From positions 1 to 12,369 of IMG/VR virus record IMGVR_UViG_3300037678_000008: DNA of 12,369 nucleotides. The stretch is one strand, 5' to 3'. A program made the position numbers. Positions 3,001 to 6,000 of this stretch are shown piece by piece (positions within the stretch are counted from its first letter, which is position 1; each line of letters begins with the position of its first letter). Source of the stretch: a virus (taxonomy: Duplodnaviria; Heunggongvirae; Uroviricota; Caudoviricetes).

Positions 3001-6000
3001 TTGAAGATCTGACAAAGCCTGTCAGCGAAATCATCACCAATGCCAGCGCACGTGTACCTCTGTTAACCATTGAGCAGCTTGCGGAGATCTATAGTCAGGC
3101 CGACTTTATTGAATCCTGGCTAAAGGCAGTACGGGACCGGGTTCACAATGAACTCAATGCCGGACATCCGGTACCGGGGTTTAAACTGGTAACAGGAAAA
3201 CAAGGTAACCGGGCCTGGAGTGATGAAGAAGCCGCCCGCGCGCTGCTGAAAGACCAGTTCCGTTATAAAACCGAGGAGGTTTTCGATCTTAAGCTGATTA
3301 GCCCAACCAAAGCCGAAAAACTTATCAAAAAGGCCAGTCCGCGCCGTTGGTCAAAAGTCGAGGCACTGATAACACGAGCTGATGGTAAACCAACCGTCGT
3401 TCCCGAGTCGGACCCACGCCCCGCACTCAATATCAACCCTGTAAATGATTTCGACGACGTATCCGACGATACGCTCGCCGCAGACCTCATCTGATTAAAG
3501 GAGACTTTCATGAAGATTAAATTAAATAACGTGAGATTAGCTTTTCCTGCTCTGTTTGAAGCTAAAACTGTAAACGGCGAAGGCGATCCGCGTTTCTCCG
3601 CAGTATTTTTAATGTCTCCCAAACACCCACAACTGGAAGAAATCCGTAAAGCTATGAAGCAGGTAGCGAAGGAAAAATGGGGGGAGAAGTGGGAGTCCAT
3701 TTATAACCAGCTGGAGAAAAAACTCAATCTGTGCCTGCATGATGGTGATGAAAAAGCAGAGTATGAAGGCTTTCCCGGCAATTTCTTCCTGAACGCAGCT
3801 AACAAAGCGCGCCCAGCTGTTCTTGATCGCGATCGTTCGCCACTAATTCAGGCTGATGGACGTCCCTATGCAGGGTGCTATGTAAACGCCGTTATCGATA
3901 TCTGGGCACAGGACAATAATTTCGGTAAACGCATTAATGCCTCACTCGGCGGAGTCCAGTTCCTGCGAGACGGCGATGCATTCGCTGGCGGCGGAGTGGC
4001 AAGCGCTGACGATTTCGACGATATCAGCGAAGGTGCTGATGCTGAAGCACTGATATAAGGATCAAATGGTGGGCGCTCATCGCCGCAGCCAATGACGACT
4101 GTGGCGGTGACGGAAAGAGAGCAAAAACCAGGTAGATTTGTTAAAGGCGCAGCGGGTGGTTGGCCCGCCGCACCTTAAGTACGTTTCCTGCTGTTACAGG
4201 AACAGCAGGATCAGCTGCAGAACAGCAATGACGATTCTGATAATCTGCTTAAGCAGTTCTCTGTGATCCGCCATCCGTTTTTCCTTTCATGAAAGGAATG
4301 CAGTCGTTCAGCTCAGCCCTTCCGTTTCCTCCGGAGCTGAACGAGTGCCACGTTGGTGCGTGCACATCGCATTCCAGGCCAGGGCTTTGACGACACCACT
4401 CGTTTCAACGGAGAAAAACCGGCGTCTCAGCAAGGAATGCGGGGCGTTAGCAACAACAGGCGGCATTTTAGCGAAGGTGTGTATGAGGAGCTACTTTAAG
4501 CTTGCAAAATTTTGCAGGCTTCCCGATAATCTCCTCGTTGGAGCGTGCACACCGCAAAATCAGCAGTAAAGTAAAAACCCCTGTTCCTCACCAGCTCAGG
4601 GGTTTTTGCTGTCCGTAAAATCACCACGTTTGACAAATCCGCCAGAGCTATCGCATACTGGCCGCACTACAACGTATAGCGGTCAACCGCACCCGATAGC
4701 TTTGCGGCTTTTTTATGCCTGTTTACAGGTATCGCCATATCTATGGCGGGTCGAGAGAGCCTAATACAACACCCTTTCGGGGAATACGCTCCGCCGTCTA
4801 TACGCGGTAGTTGAAGCCCGCCACCCTACTACCCTGATATTGACTCATCGCCCCCTTCCGGTTTATGCTCACCGAATCTCCCAAATGGAGATCGGGATTT
4901 GCAACCCGGAATTGTTAGGGGCGACACCAGACGCGCCAGTGTCTTTTTTATTGTCGCAAGCTTTGCCACGTTCGCATTATGGCGGGCTGGCGGGGGCGCT
5001 TCGGCGCGCCGGTTTCCTCTAACGCCGGTATTGCAAACCTCGTCAGTTCGCCACCCATATGAGATTTGCAACTCAGTGGTGGCGGTGAATTTCACCGTTA
5101 GAGGTAACAGTGATGGCAACTCAACTCATCCCCGTTTTCAACGGCGCTATCGCCAACGAAACCACCCTGCTCTGCAATGCTCGCGATCTGCACGCATTCC
5201 TTGGGGTAGGGAAAGTGTTTGCAGCGTGGATTACATCACGAATTGCAGACTATGAATTCGTTGAAAATCAGGATTATATCGTAACGTTTTCCAAAACTGG
5301 AAAGCGTAAAAATGTTCTTTGTAAGGACTACCACCTCACTCTCGATACAGCCAAAGAACTGGCGATGGTGGAGCGCAACGAAAAAGGCCGCCAGATACGC
5401 CGATACTTCATCGAGTGCGAACGCAAACTGCACCAGCAATCCTCCACGATACTGGCGCCACACAGGGAGTGTCTGCCGAAGATGGTTTACCATCACCGGA
5501 GCAAATACAACCCGTACAGAGCTTACGCATGGGACGGAGAGAAAAGCGTTTACGTCGGGTGCTATCCGACTGTGGATGAGGCTGTCGCTGCTCAGGAACG
5601 CTTCTACCGGAACGGCAGCACGAAACGCATTCAGAAGGCGCAGACAGCAGTCAGTGACGCAGAGAAGGAGATGTTCATCAACAATCTCCGCGCCGTCTGT
5701 CATAACTTCCGGCGCATCAATGAAATCTGGCGGGCGCAGTTAATGCCTGCTCTCGAAAAAATGGATTCGAAACTGGTTTACCAGTTGCATGACCGCTTCA
5801 GCGACAGCATGTGCATTCTGCCGACCATAGAAGACCGCATCGGCAGATATATCCCACCCACTTTACCTCGTTAATCCTTCAGTTCGCCCCTGCTCAGCCA
5901 GGGGCTTTTTATCACCGTTTAATTTACGGAGGACTTCGTTTTGTCTGAAAACACTGATTTAAAAAAGCAAAGTATCAGACCTGTAATATCATTTGGCCTG

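What the first reader, a model, noticed from the sequence alone, without database searches (positions are those of the whole stretch)
4894..5072. Recurring TTGCAA-core motif upstream of the AntA-like gene
GGGATTTGCAAC (4894-4905) and GAGATTTGCAAC (5061-5072) are 11 of 12 identical, with a related GGTATTGCAAAC at 5027-5038. The same TTGCAA core sits in the 24-bp palindrome at 4498-4521. The last two copies lie within 90 bp of the AntA-like start, consistent with operator sites. They could equally be -35-like promoter elements.
Basis: seen in the sequence. Interest (0 to 1): 0.35.

Follow-up and report, generated by a model that had tools for sequence, protein, structure and literature searches.

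The report
C4 antisense RNA pairing sites
The repeated TTGCAA motif is the recognition sequence of a well-known phage antisense-RNA switch (C4 type, as in phage P1) that keeps an antirepressor gene silent, so it is an ordinary member of a known system and not a set of protein operators or promoter boxes.

Summary
They are not equivalent DNA boxes. The middle copy (5027-5038) lies in the single-stranded a' stretch (UUGCAAA, 5031-5037) of a C4 antisense RNA (Rfam RF01695, 4975-5058, 70.6 bits against a cut-off of 45). The outer copies carry its complement, UUUGCAA. One is a1 (4898-4904), in a hairpin loop of an upstream IsrK/c4-a1b1-like short RNA. The other is a2 (5065-5071), just 3' of C4.

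A second pair follows the same logic. The C4 loop b' (5016-5024) matches b1 (4913-4921) and b2 (5096-5104), and b2 covers the Shine-Dalgarno sequence of the AntA gene (ATG 5113). The copies look like direct repeats only because TTGCAA is its own reverse complement.

Among 85 distinct relatives, a'/a2 complementarity of at least 7 nt occurs in 98.8% of cognate pairs and 1.8% of non-cognate pairs. In a 46-sequence alignment, 5 of 7 pairs show compensatory changes. The layout matches the annotated a1, b1, C4, a2, b2 sites of phage P1.

The TTGCAA in the 4498-4521 palindrome is unrelated. It sits in a promoter-like site of a shoB/ohsC-like toxin-antitoxin locus.

In passing: the adjacent sRNA-Xcc1 element uses the same logic.

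The parts
4840..4869 (+). Sigma-70-like promoter (TTGACT-18-TATGCT) of the a1b1-C4-ant transcription unit
   Evidence: Promoter scan, 9/12 match. In relatives a promoter-like site scoring at least 9/12 sits with its -10 end 27-32 nt upstream of a1 in 56 of 73 loci, against 2 of 73 shuffled controls. Transcription from it is inferred.
4876..4892 (+). Hairpin 1 of the a1b1 / IsrK-like leader RNA (AUCUCC-CAAAU-GGAGAU)
   Evidence: Sub-threshold Rfam matches to isrK (4876-4949, 45.4 bits, cut-off 50) and c4-a1b1 (4863-4912, 29.8 bits, cut-off 46.7) align this hairpin. Also present in the fold.
4893..4909 (+). Hairpin 2 (CGGG/CCCG stem) that presents site a1 (UUUGCAA, 4898-4904) in its loop.
   Evidence: Aligned by both the c4-a1b1 and isrK models. 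a1 is perfectly complementary to a' and co-varies with it: 100% of cells paired and 5 of 7 pairs with changes on both sides in 46 sequences. The complement of a' is found upstream in 74 of 85 cognate loci, against 0.6% of non-cognate pairs.
4913..4921 (+). Site b1 (UGUUAGGGG), complementary to the b' loop of C4 with G-U wobbles
   Evidence: Read from the sequence. It lies immediately 3' of the c4-a1b1 model, as described for b1. In relatives b1 is found within 35 nt of a1 with at most 2 mismatches in 59 of 67 loci. Its transitions are all wobble-compatible, 13 against 0.
4929..4949 (+). Intrinsic terminator (stem AGACGC-GCCA-GUGUCU followed by a U-run) that would end a short a1b1/IsrK-like RNA of about 75 nt. 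Read-through would give the C4-ant transcript.
   Evidence: Terminator scan. Matches the terminator of the isrK model. Conserved in alignment A3. Read-through is inferred from the IsrK and P1 systems.
4975..5058 (+). C4 antisense RNA. P1 stem 4980-4995/5038-5053. P2 4996-5007 with a UUCG loop. P3 5008-5029 with the b' loop (CCUCUAACG, 5016-5024). Single-stranded a' (UUGCAAA, 5031-5037).
   Evidence: Rfam RF01695, 70.6 bits against a cut-off of 45, E 1.9e-12, full-length match. The minimum-free-energy fold is -43.3 kcal/mol (z -4.33) and leaves b' and a' unpaired. My own covariance model finds homologues in related loci.
5065..5071 (+). Site a2 (UUUGCAA), target of a' on the ant mRNA.
   Evidence: Perfect 7-nt complement of a', 9 nt after the C4 3' stem. 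Complementarity of at least 7 nt occurs in 84 of 85 cognate loci against 1.8% of 5352 non-cognate pairs. In 46 sequences 100% of cells pair, 67 cells changed on both sides, and 0 of 500 shuffles reach the observed values.
5048..5085 (+). Alternative hairpin that puts a2 in its loop. The 3' strand of C4 P1 (5048-5055) pairs with GGUGGCGG (5078-5085). It cannot coexist with the C4 P1 stem.
   Evidence: 97.8% of cells paired in 46 sequences, 2 pairs changed on both sides, and slid controls pair at 28-73%. Its role is inferred.
5096..5104 (+). Site b2 (CGUUAGAGG), target of the b' loop. It contains the Shine-Dalgarno GAGG (5101-5104), 8 nt before the ATG.
   Evidence: 9-nt perfect complement of b'. 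Across 85 loci the longest complementary run averages 8.2 nt for cognate pairs and 5.1 nt for non-cognate pairs, there are 62 distinct b' runs, and the site usually ends 7-10 nt before a start codon.
5113..5874 (+). Regulated gene: AntA-family phage antirepressor (253 aa)
   Evidence: Pfam AntA PF08346, E 9.8e-25. RefSeq annotates it as 'phage antirepressor Ant', WP_000235335.1, in E. coli HY220605.

Best explanation
The motif copies are the 'a' recognition elements of a P1-type (immI-like) C4 antisense-RNA switch that controls translation of a prophage antirepressor.

A promoter at 4840-4869 would drive a transcript that begins with two hairpins carrying a1 (in a loop) and b1. Most transcripts would stop at the terminator (4929-4949), giving a short a1b1/IsrK-like RNA. 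Read-through transcripts would contain the tRNA-like C4 RNA (4975-5058) followed by the ant leader.

C4, presumably cut out of the precursor as in P1, exposes two stretches: the P3 loop b' (CCUCUAACG) and the single strand a' (UUGCAAA). These pair with a2 (UUUGCAA, 5065-5071) and b2 (CGUUAGAGG, 5096-5104). The b2 pairing covers the Shine-Dalgarno sequence and blocks Ant synthesis, which keeps the prophage repressed. The upstream a1/b1 copy offers the same two sequences and can compete for C4 as a decoy, or pair with it in cis, relieving repression.

Shown here: the C4 family match and fold; the complementarities; their covariation across relatives; the position of b2 on the ribosome-binding site; and the one-to-one match to the annotated P1 sites.

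Inferred from P1 and Gifsy-1 work: transcription, processing, translational repression and the decoy role.
For: Rfam match to C4 at 70.6 bits against a cut-off of 45, with sub-threshold isrK (45.4/50) and c4-a1b1 (29.8/46.7) matches on the upstream unit.

The fold leaves a' and b' unpaired, z -4.33.

a'/a2 complementarity of at least 7 nt occurs in 98.8% of 85 cognate loci against 1.8% of non-cognate pairs. a1 is present in 74 of 85 loci against 0.6%. There are 29 distinct a' complementary runs.

On a 46-sequence alignment, a'-a2 and a1-a' are each 100% paired, with 5 of 7 pairs changed on both sides, no change on one side only, 0 of 500 shuffles reaching the observed values, and slid controls pairing at 20-52%.

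b'/b2 runs average 8.2 nt (cognate) against 5.1 nt (non-cognate), and the site sits on the Shine-Dalgarno sequence.

b1 transitions are all wobble-compatible, 13 against 0, p 2.4e-4.

The P1 GenBank record annotates a1, b1, C4, a2, b2 in the same order and with similar spacing.

Weinberg 2010 Additional file 1 describes a1/b1/a2/b2 and the competition model.

In Gifsy-1, IsrK over-expression raises antirepressor translation more than 100-fold.

The downstream gene is an AntA antirepressor.
Against: No expression or processing data exist for this locus.

The c4-a1b1 and isrK matches fall below Rfam's cut-offs.

The 46-sequence alignment was pre-selected for loci in which a1 was found at 70-86 nt, so its 100% pairing is inflated. 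The unselected counts are the fair figures.

A site and its reverse complement are the same thing on double-stranded DNA, so complementarity alone does not exclude a DNA-binding factor.

Unlike P1, there is no icd-like leader ORF here. The way repression reaches ant may therefore differ: direct occlusion rather than translational coupling or polarity.
Confidence: 0.9

Rival explanations
1. Protein operator sites. A prophage repressor or other DNA-binding protein recognises the GRNATTTGCAAC boxes on double-stranded DNA and controls transcription of ant.
For: The TTGCAA core is a short palindrome, as half-operators often are. The copies cluster upstream of ant. On DNA, direct and inverted copies are equivalent, so the complementarity pattern alone does not exclude this.
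Against: One copy lies inside a high-scoring structured RNA, in the stretch that the family keeps single-stranded.

The core changes freely between relatives (29 distinct complementary runs), yet all three positions always change together. A protein reading these sites would have to co-evolve each time, and none is evident.

A second covarying pair sits on the Shine-Dalgarno sequence.

b1 deviations keep G-U wobbles only, which means nothing for DNA recognition.

In P1 the homologous sites are annotated as binding sites for C4 antisense RNA, a1 and b1 as putative.
Confidence: 0.03
2. -35-like promoter hexamers. Each TTGCAA is the -35 box of a promoter.
For: TTGCAA matches TTGACA at 4 of 6 positions. 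The unrelated copy at 4502-4507 does have a GATAAT 17 nt downstream.
Against: The scan finds no -10 partner for the copies at 4899, 5031 or 5066. In relatives the hexamer is replaced by sequences unlike a -35 box, for example UUGGCGU or UUAGCAC. The conserved promoter-like site lies upstream of hairpin 1, not at the motif.
Confidence: 0.02
3. Same RNA elements, different mode of action, as in the Gifsy-1 IsrK model. Control would work mainly in cis. In the unprocessed read-through transcript the a1/b1 region pairs with the C4 segment (a'/b') to lock the mRNA in a form that is not translated. The short terminated a1b1 RNA then acts in trans as an activator. No processed, trans-acting C4 repressor would be needed.
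For: IsrK work shows two alternative structures, activation in trans by the short RNA, and compensatory mutations between IsrK and the downstream 'orf45' region. That region gives the processed RNA STnc1160, which is complementary to IsrK. The upstream unit here matches isrK at 45.4 bits. An alternative a2 hairpin that competes with the C4 P1 stem is conserved.
Against: A purely cis lock does not explain why a2/b2 co-vary with a'/b' as tightly as a1/b1 do, nor why b2 sits on the Shine-Dalgarno sequence. C4 has a conserved, stable tRNA-like fold typical of a processed RNA. In P1 the 77-nt C4 is annotated as a discrete RNA that represses through a2/b2. The two modes are not mutually exclusive.
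Confidence: 0.25
4. Chance recurrence of a short AT-rich palindromic word with no function.
For: TTGCAA is not enriched in the window (7 found, 6.66 expected). The 12-mer pair is only modestly unexpected.
Against: Position-specific covariation in 85 loci and homology to the annotated P1 sites.
Confidence: 0.01

Closest known systems
immI region of phages P1 and P7: c4 antisense RNA with a1/b1 and a2/b2 sites controlling icd-ant (Citron & Schuster 1990; annotated in NC_005856.1)
   Same: Same order and similar spacing: promoter, hairpin loop with a1, b1, terminator-like hairpin, a tRNA-like C4 of about 77 nt with b' in the P3 loop and a' single-stranded, a2 a few nt after C4, and b2 on the ribosome-binding site (compared). 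The b elements even share a GUUAG core. The match to the Rfam family is above its cut-off.
   Different: The target here is the Shine-Dalgarno sequence of an AntA-family antirepressor itself. P1 has an icd leader ORF whose translation is coupled to ant1/ant2. The host element is a chromosomal E. coli prophage with a DNA polymerase / DUF2800 / DUF2815 replication module, not a P1-like plasmid prophage. No C1 operator (Op51-like) was found or looked for. The specificity sequences differ: a' is UUGCAAA here and CUGUCAA in P1.
Gifsy-1 IsrK - orf45/STnc1160 - AnrP locus of Salmonella (Hershko-Shalev et al. 2016, PMC4825925)
   Same: A short terminated sRNA with two 5' hairpins and an intrinsic terminator, read-through into an antirepressor mRNA, and a processed RNA downstream that is complementary to the short sRNA. 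The window's 4876-4949 matches the isrK model at 45.4 bits, E 2.3e-8.
   Different: The score is below Rfam's cut-off of 50. That paper interprets the segment between IsrK and anrP as a 45-codon ORF needed for translational coupling. Here that segment is a clear C4 RNA, and b2 abuts ant directly. Equating STnc1160 with C4 is my inference and was not tested here.
P4 CI RNA with seqA and seqC (immunity of satellite phage P4)
   Same: A small RNA processed out of the leader transcript pairs with complementary sequences upstream and downstream of itself. The IsrK paper names SeqA as a structural homologue of IsrK.
   Different: In P4 the outcome is premature transcription termination of the replication genes, not occlusion of an antirepressor ribosome-binding site. 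It is a different RNA family. No sequence comparison was made here.
sRNA-Xcc1 (RF02221), present next door at 4745-4830
   Same: A tRNA-like three-helix RNA ending in CACC, with a variable P3 loop complementary to one site upstream (within a short terminated unit) and one site on the Shine-Dalgarno sequence of a downstream ant-like gene in relatives.
   Different: It is a separate Rfam family, not placed in the C4 clan. The C4 model scores it at only 16.9 bits. In this window it has no downstream target site.

Membership tests
C4 antisense RNA (Rfam RF01695) | Covariance-model score at or above the curated gathering score | tested here: met
   70.6 bits against a cut-off of 45, E 1.9e-12, model positions 1-87 of 87.
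C4 antisense RNA (Rfam RF01695) | Long closing stem P1, P2 capped by a stable tetraloop, P3 hairpin with a variable loop, and a single-stranded stretch before the 3' strand of P1 | tested here: met
   The minimum-free-energy fold (-43.3 kcal/mol, z -4.33) gives exactly this, with a UUCG loop on P2. The stems are supported by compensatory changes in 6 relatives.
P1-type c4 / immI antisense system | a' and b' of the RNA are complementary to a2 and b2 just downstream, and b2 overlaps a ribosome-binding site | tested here: met
   a' 5031-5037 pairs with a2 5065-5071 (7 nt). b' 5016-5024 pairs with b2 5096-5104 (9 nt), which includes GAGG 8 nt before the ATG. Both pairings co-vary in relatives.
P1-type c4 / immI antisense system | A second copy of the target sites (a1, b1) upstream of the RNA | tested here: met
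   a1 at 4898-4904 and b1 at 4913-4921. a1 co-varies with a'. a1 is present in 74 of 85 relatives.
P1-type c4 / immI antisense system | The regulated gene is an antirepressor | tested here: met
   AntA Pfam domain, E 9.8e-25. RefSeq names it 'phage antirepressor Ant'. It differs from P1 in lacking an icd leader ORF.
P1-type c4 / immI antisense system | C4 is processed from the same transcript as its target (RNase P at the 5' end) and represses Ant synthesis | not testable with these tools
   No expression data. No separate promoter was detected between the terminator and C4, which is consistent with co-transcription.
c4-a1b1 motif (Rfam RF03163) | Covariance-model score at or above the gathering score | tested here: not met
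   29.8 bits against a cut-off of 46.7, E 2.3e-5, at 4863-4912. I therefore call it a1b1-like and do not file it as a curated member.
c4-a1b1 motif (Rfam RF03163) | Two adjacent hairpins, a1 within the motif and b1 immediately 3' of it, upstream of a C4 RNA | tested here: met
   Hairpins at 4876-4892 and 4893-4909 are aligned by the model. b1 starts at 4913. C4 lies 66 nt downstream.
isrK Hfq-binding RNA (Rfam RF01394) | Covariance-model score at or above the gathering score | tested here: not met
   45.4 bits against a cut-off of 50, E 2.3e-8, full-length match at 4876-4949 including the terminator. A near miss.
For an operator: a site conserved together with its binding protein. | tested here: not met
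   No promoter-like site was called at the three copies. The site sequence varies among relatives and tracks the RNA partner. Protein binding itself cannot be tested here.
tRNA gene | Cloverleaf recognised by ARAGORN | tested here: not met
   ARAGORN finds no tRNA or tmRNA genes in the window. C4 is tRNA-like only in its acceptor-like stem and its CACC end.

The most novel reading that the evidence does not exclude
The window may carry two stacked antisense-immunity modules. Directly upstream of the C4 unit lies an sRNA-Xcc1 RNA (4745-4830) with its own promoter and a short terminated unit (4630-4716). That unit carries a site (CTACAACGTATAG, 4667-4679) complementary to the Xcc1 P3 loop.

In relatives, Xcc1 sits directly in front of an ant-like gene. 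Its loop matches both the upstream site and the Shine-Dalgarno region. This would make the sRNA-Xcc1 family a C4-like cis-encoded translational repressor of antirepressor or toxic genes. The papers I read describe it only as a trans-acting virulence-linked sRNA of unknown mechanism.

In this window the C4 module occupies the place of the Xcc1 target. The Xcc1 copy would then be an orphan that might act in trans against incoming phages of matching specificity.
Probability: 0.5. Interest if true: 0.45.

Novelty: new member of a known kind. Interest (0 to 1): 0.2.

Why it matters
For the finding itself, little is new. It shows that this unannotated 270-bp stretch of an E. coli prophage is a standard C4/a1b1 antisense switch guarding an antirepressor, and it corrects an operator/promoter reading.

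It has some practical value. RefSeq annotates no RNA in this stretch, and several phage records annotate proteins across the homologous region.

The a'/b' sequences define the immunity specificity of the module, as in P1/P7 heteroimmunity by my recollection. The UUGCAAA type was unique among the 85 variants sampled.

The side observation could matter more. If sRNA-Xcc1 works by the same three-site logic, that gives a concrete, testable mechanism for a widespread sRNA family, including the copies upstream of symE in Xanthomonas integrons.

Tried and rejected
- **Operator and -35 readings.** Rejected on the promoter scan and the covariation data.
- **tRNA.** ARAGORN finds none.
- **Link between the motif and the 4498-4521 palindrome.** Rejected. 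That region belongs to a shoB/ohsC-like locus. It shares only a hexamer that is not enriched in the window.
- **Downstream target for the Xcc1 RNA inside the window.** None found.
- **Separate promoter for C4 between the terminator and C4.** Only an 8/12 match by eye, with a start that would fall inside the P1 stem. The scan did not call it.
- **Primary P1 papers.** PMC204598 is not held. The P1 site definitions therefore rest on the GenBank annotation and on Weinberg 2010 Additional file 1.
- **First pattern scan.** Failed on syntax and was rerun as the reverse complement.
- **MAFFT alignment of the window's shoB-ohsC region with the chromosomal locus.** Uninformative beyond the shoB part.
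- **Site names.** I first named the a and b sites the wrong way round. This was corrected.
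Full report
**Observation.** The stretch 4498-4521 is a 24-bp palindrome with one mismatched position, and it contains TTGCAA. Judged inside the window alone the recurrence is weak. The hexamer TTGCAA occurs 7 times against 6.66 expected. The 12-mer GRKATTTGCAAC occurs twice against 0.28 expected, and 4 of 200 shuffles do as well. Whether it is real had to be settled by other evidence.

**What lies there.** A scan against Rfam places a C4 antisense RNA (RF01695) at 4975-5058 on the + strand. It scores 70.6 bits against a gathering score of 45 and matches the full length of the model.
- Folded alone, the RNA forms a 16-bp closing stem, a short hairpin capped by UUCG, and a third hairpin. 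The third hairpin's 10-nt loop (UUCCUCUAAC) and the following 8 nt (AUUGCAAA) stay unpaired (-43.3 kcal/mol, z -4.33).
- A permissive Rfam scan of 4300-5300 adds two matches below their cut-offs on the unit just upstream: isrK (4876-4949, 45.4 bits, cut-off 50) and c4-a1b1 (4863-4912, 29.8 bits, cut-off 46.7).
- Both align two hairpins. An intrinsic terminator follows at 4929-4949.
- A promoter-like site, TTGACT-18-TATGCT, lies at 4840-4869.
- The downstream ORF (ATG 5113 to 5874) is an AntA-family antirepressor (Pfam PF08346, E 9.8e-25).
- The window is 100% identical to a prophage in the chromosome of E. coli HY220605. RefSeq annotates that gene as 'phage antirepressor Ant' and annotates no RNA in this stretch.

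**Anatomy.** I use the site names of the P1 literature as relayed by Weinberg et al. 2010.
- The single strand a' (UUGCAAA, 5031-5037) is the exact complement of UUUGCAA. That heptamer occurs at 4898-4904 (a1) and at 5065-5071 (a2).
- The loop b' (CCUCUAACG, 5016-5024) is the exact complement of CGUUAGAGG at 5096-5104 (b2). It also pairs, with G-U wobbles, with UGUUAGGGG at 4913-4921 (b1).
- b2 contains the Shine-Dalgarno GAGG, 8 nt before the ATG.
- The three copies look like direct repeats only because the core TTGCAA is its own reverse complement.

**Comparative test.** I collected relatives in two ways:
- through the Ant protein (loci L002-L076);
- through a degenerate DNA pattern that fixes only the two strands of the C4 closing stem and leaves a' and b' free (loci L077 onwards).

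This gave 85 distinct C4 sequences with full flanks.
- **a' with a2.** In 84 of 85 loci the stretch before the 3' strand of P1 has a perfect complement of at least 7 nt within about 10 nt after the RNA. For pairs of C4 and flank taken from different loci with a different a', the figure is 1.8% of 5352.
- **a' with a1.** The same heptamer's complement occurs upstream in 74 of 85 cognate loci, against 0.6% of non-cognate pairs. There are 29 distinct complementary runs, for example ACGCCAA, GUGCUAA, GUUCCAA and AGACCAA. The window's UUGCAAA occurs only once in the set.
- **Formal pair counts.** On a 46-sequence alignment, the a'-a2 helix and the a1-a' helix are each 100% paired. Five of 7 pairs changed on both sides, 67 cells carry double changes, and none changed on one side only. 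None of 500 shuffles reaches the observed values, and slid controls pair at 20-52%. These 46 were pre-selected for having a1 at the usual distance, so the unselected figures are the fair ones.
- **b' with b2.** The loop behaves the same way. The longest complementary run to the next 100 nt averages 8.2 nt (cognate) against 5.1 nt (non-cognate). There are 62 distinct runs, and the site typically ends 7-10 nt before a start codon.
- **RNA rather than DNA.** Where b1 departs from the perfect complement by a transition, the change is always A to G or C to U, which keeps a G-U pair. The count is 13 against 0 for the opposite transitions (p 2.4e-4).
- **Promoter.** A promoter-like site at a fixed distance upstream of a1 is conserved: 56 of 73 loci score at least 9/12, against 2 of 73 shuffled controls.

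**Comparison with P1.** The GenBank record of phage P1 annotates a1 (48255-48261), b1 (48269-48276), the 77-nt C4 RNA (48343-48419), a2 (48423-48429), b2 (48452-48459) and the icd start at 48470.
- Read against the P1 sequence, the layout is the same as here element for element. a1 (UUGACAG) sits in the loop of a CGG/CCUG hairpin. b1 (GUUAGUG) follows shortly after. A terminator-like hairpin comes next, then C4 with b' (CACUAAC) in its loop and a' (CUGUCAA) single-stranded. a2 lies 3 nt after the RNA and b2 on the ribosome-binding site.
- Weinberg et al. record the original proposal that a1/b1 compete with a2/b2 for C4 and so allow ant expression.
- In the Gifsy-1 prophage, the IsrK sRNA has the same shape as the upstream unit here. 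It reads through its terminator into an antirepressor mRNA. When over-expressed in trans, it raises antirepressor translation more than 100-fold and induces the prophage. A processed RNA downstream (STnc1160) is complementary to it.

**Mechanism.** The most likely mechanism is the P1 one.
- Transcripts from the 4840-4869 promoter mostly end at the terminator as a short a1b1 RNA.
- Read-through yields C4 plus the ant leader.
- C4 pairs through a' and b' with a2 and b2 and occludes the Shine-Dalgarno sequence, so no antirepressor is made.
- The a1b1 RNA titrates C4, or pairs with it in cis, and tips the balance toward induction.

Shown here are the family match, the fold, the complementarities, their covariation and the position on the ribosome-binding site. 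Transcription, processing and the regulatory outcome are inferred from P1 and Gifsy-1.

The difference from P1 is that there is no icd-like leader ORF. b2 abuts ant itself, so repression is probably by direct occlusion.

A variant in which the lock is mainly in cis (the IsrK model) uses the same pairings and is not excluded. A conserved alternative hairpin puts a2 in a loop by pairing the 3' strand of the C4 closing stem (5048-5055) with GGUGGCGG (5078-5085). It is 97.8% paired in 46 sequences with two covarying pairs, which suggests that the precursor can switch structures.

**Rivals.**
- **Protein operators.** They would need a DNA-binding protein that changes specificity every time the three sites change together. 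They do not explain the wobble bias, the placement of one site in the conserved single strand of a structured RNA, or the second site pair on the Shine-Dalgarno sequence.
- **-35 boxes.** No -10 partner is found at the three copies, and relatives replace the hexamer with sequences unlike a -35 box.
- **Chance.** Excluded by the covariation.

**The palindrome at 4498-4521 is a separate matter.**
- On the minus strand at 4194-4274 there is a 26-codon ORF, MADHRELLKQIIRIVIAVLQLILLFL.
- The window stretch 4180-4411 is about 76% identical to the chromosomal shoB locus, which is found in 5421 of 5426 complete E. coli genomes.
- An OhsC-like RNA matches at 4537-4612 (42.3 bits, cut-off 50).
- The palindrome overlaps a promoter-like TTGCAA-17-GATAAT (4502-4530) that ends 7 nt before the start of the OhsC match.

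That TTGCAA is therefore plausibly a -35 box of a prophage-borne type I toxin-antitoxin locus, unrelated to the C4 sites.

**Noticed next door.** An sRNA-Xcc1 match (RF02221, 60 bits against a cut-off of 53, 4745-4830) sits between the shoB/ohsC-like locus and the C4 unit.
- It is preceded by its own promoter-like site (4630-4659) and a short terminated unit.
- Its third-hairpin loop plus the next four bases (CUAUACG...GUAG) are complementary to CTACAACGTATAG at 4667-4679. No second site exists downstream in the window.
- In relatives, Xcc1 sits directly before an ant-like gene. These include Stx2 phage 86 (65.4 bits). The loop matches both an upstream site and the Shine-Dalgarno region, and it changes together with them.
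- In 100 distinct Xcc1 elements from a pattern scan, the loop has a perfect complement of at least 7 nt within 60 nt downstream in 60% of cognate cases against 3.7% of non-cognate pairs. Upstream the figures are 71% against 8.2%.
- A Xylella genome table lists Xcc1, isrK and C4 in the same order within 400 nt.
- The papers I read treat sRNA-Xcc1 as a virulence-linked trans-acting sRNA of unknown mechanism.

The same three-site logic as C4 seems a better description. In this window the Xcc1 copy looks like an orphan whose target was displaced by the C4 module.

**Verdict.** Its interpretation as operators or -35 boxes is wrong in mechanism, though right that the motif regulates the antirepressor gene. 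The feature is an unannotated but ordinary member of the C4 antisense family, with a previously unsampled specificity (UUGCAAA). Interest is low for the finding itself. The Xcc1 observation is the part worth following up.

Noticed in passing
window 4630-4830: An sRNA-Xcc1 element (RF02221, 60 bits, 4745-4830) is preceded by a promoter-like site (4630-4659) and a short terminated unit. That unit carries CTACAACGTATAG (4667-4679), which is complementary to the Xcc1 P3 loop and the next four bases. In relatives Xcc1 sits directly before an ant-like gene, and its loop co-varies with an upstream site and with a site on the Shine-Dalgarno sequence. Downstream, 60% of cognate cases match against 3.7% of non-cognate pairs (100 elements). 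This is C4-like logic, which none of the papers I read describes for this family. In this window the downstream site is missing, so the copy looks like an orphan.
   Followed up: partly
window 4194-4274 (-) and 4537-4612 (+): A prophage-borne shoB/ohsC-like type I toxin-antitoxin locus. The 26-aa hydrophobic ORF is MADHRELLKQIIRIVIAVLQLILLFL. Window 4180-4411 is about 76% identical to the chromosomal shoB locus, which is found in 5421 of 5426 complete E. coli genomes. An OhsC-like RNA matches at 42.3 bits (cut-off 50). Neither is annotated in RefSeq, and this version occurs in only 2-3 complete E. coli genomes.
   Followed up: partly
window 4498-4530: The 24-bp palindrome overlaps a promoter-like TTGCAA-17-GATAAT that ends 7 nt before the start of the OhsC-like match. 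As RNA it would also form a stable 10-bp hairpin, possibly in the 5' UTR of the shoB-like mRNA on the opposite strand. Which of these roles it has was not resolved.
   Followed up: partly
window 5048-5085: The 3' strand of the C4 closing stem can instead pair with GGUGGCGG (5078-5085), which places a2 in a hairpin loop much as a1 is. This helix is 97.8% paired in 46 relatives with two covarying pairs. It cannot coexist with folded C4, which suggests a structural switch in the precursor.
   Followed up: partly
window 5031-5036, 4899-4904, 5066-5071: This locus has a self-complementary recognition core (UUGCAA). In principle a' could pair with a' of another C4 molecule, and a1 with a2. Most of the other a' types sampled are not palindromic at the core. 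One other is an 8-nt palindrome (L167, GUUGCAAC). Whether this matters is unknown.
   Followed up: no
phage records hit (e.g. LC567818.1 51120-51311, ON416862.2 36974-37178): In many Stx-phage records the DNA homologous to the a1b1-C4 module lies under features annotated as 'hypothetical protein', 'putative phage regulatory protein' or 'antirepressor'. This suggests that ORFs have been called across a non-coding RNA region.
   Followed up: no
L097 (two C4 modules, about 1.3 kb apart) and IMGVR_UViG_2537562192_000021 (L002 with C4, L012 with Xcc1): Some phage contigs carry two antisense modules of different specificity or family, each in front of its own ant-like gene. The stacking seen in the window is therefore part of a wider mosaic pattern.
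   Followed up: no
window 8743-9504 and surroundings (L001 11264-12025): The prophage also encodes a TIR-domain protein next to a family A DNA polymerase, a VRR-NUC protein and a SNF2 protein (RefSeq annotation). It could be a defence or counter-defence gene. Not examined.
   Followed up: no
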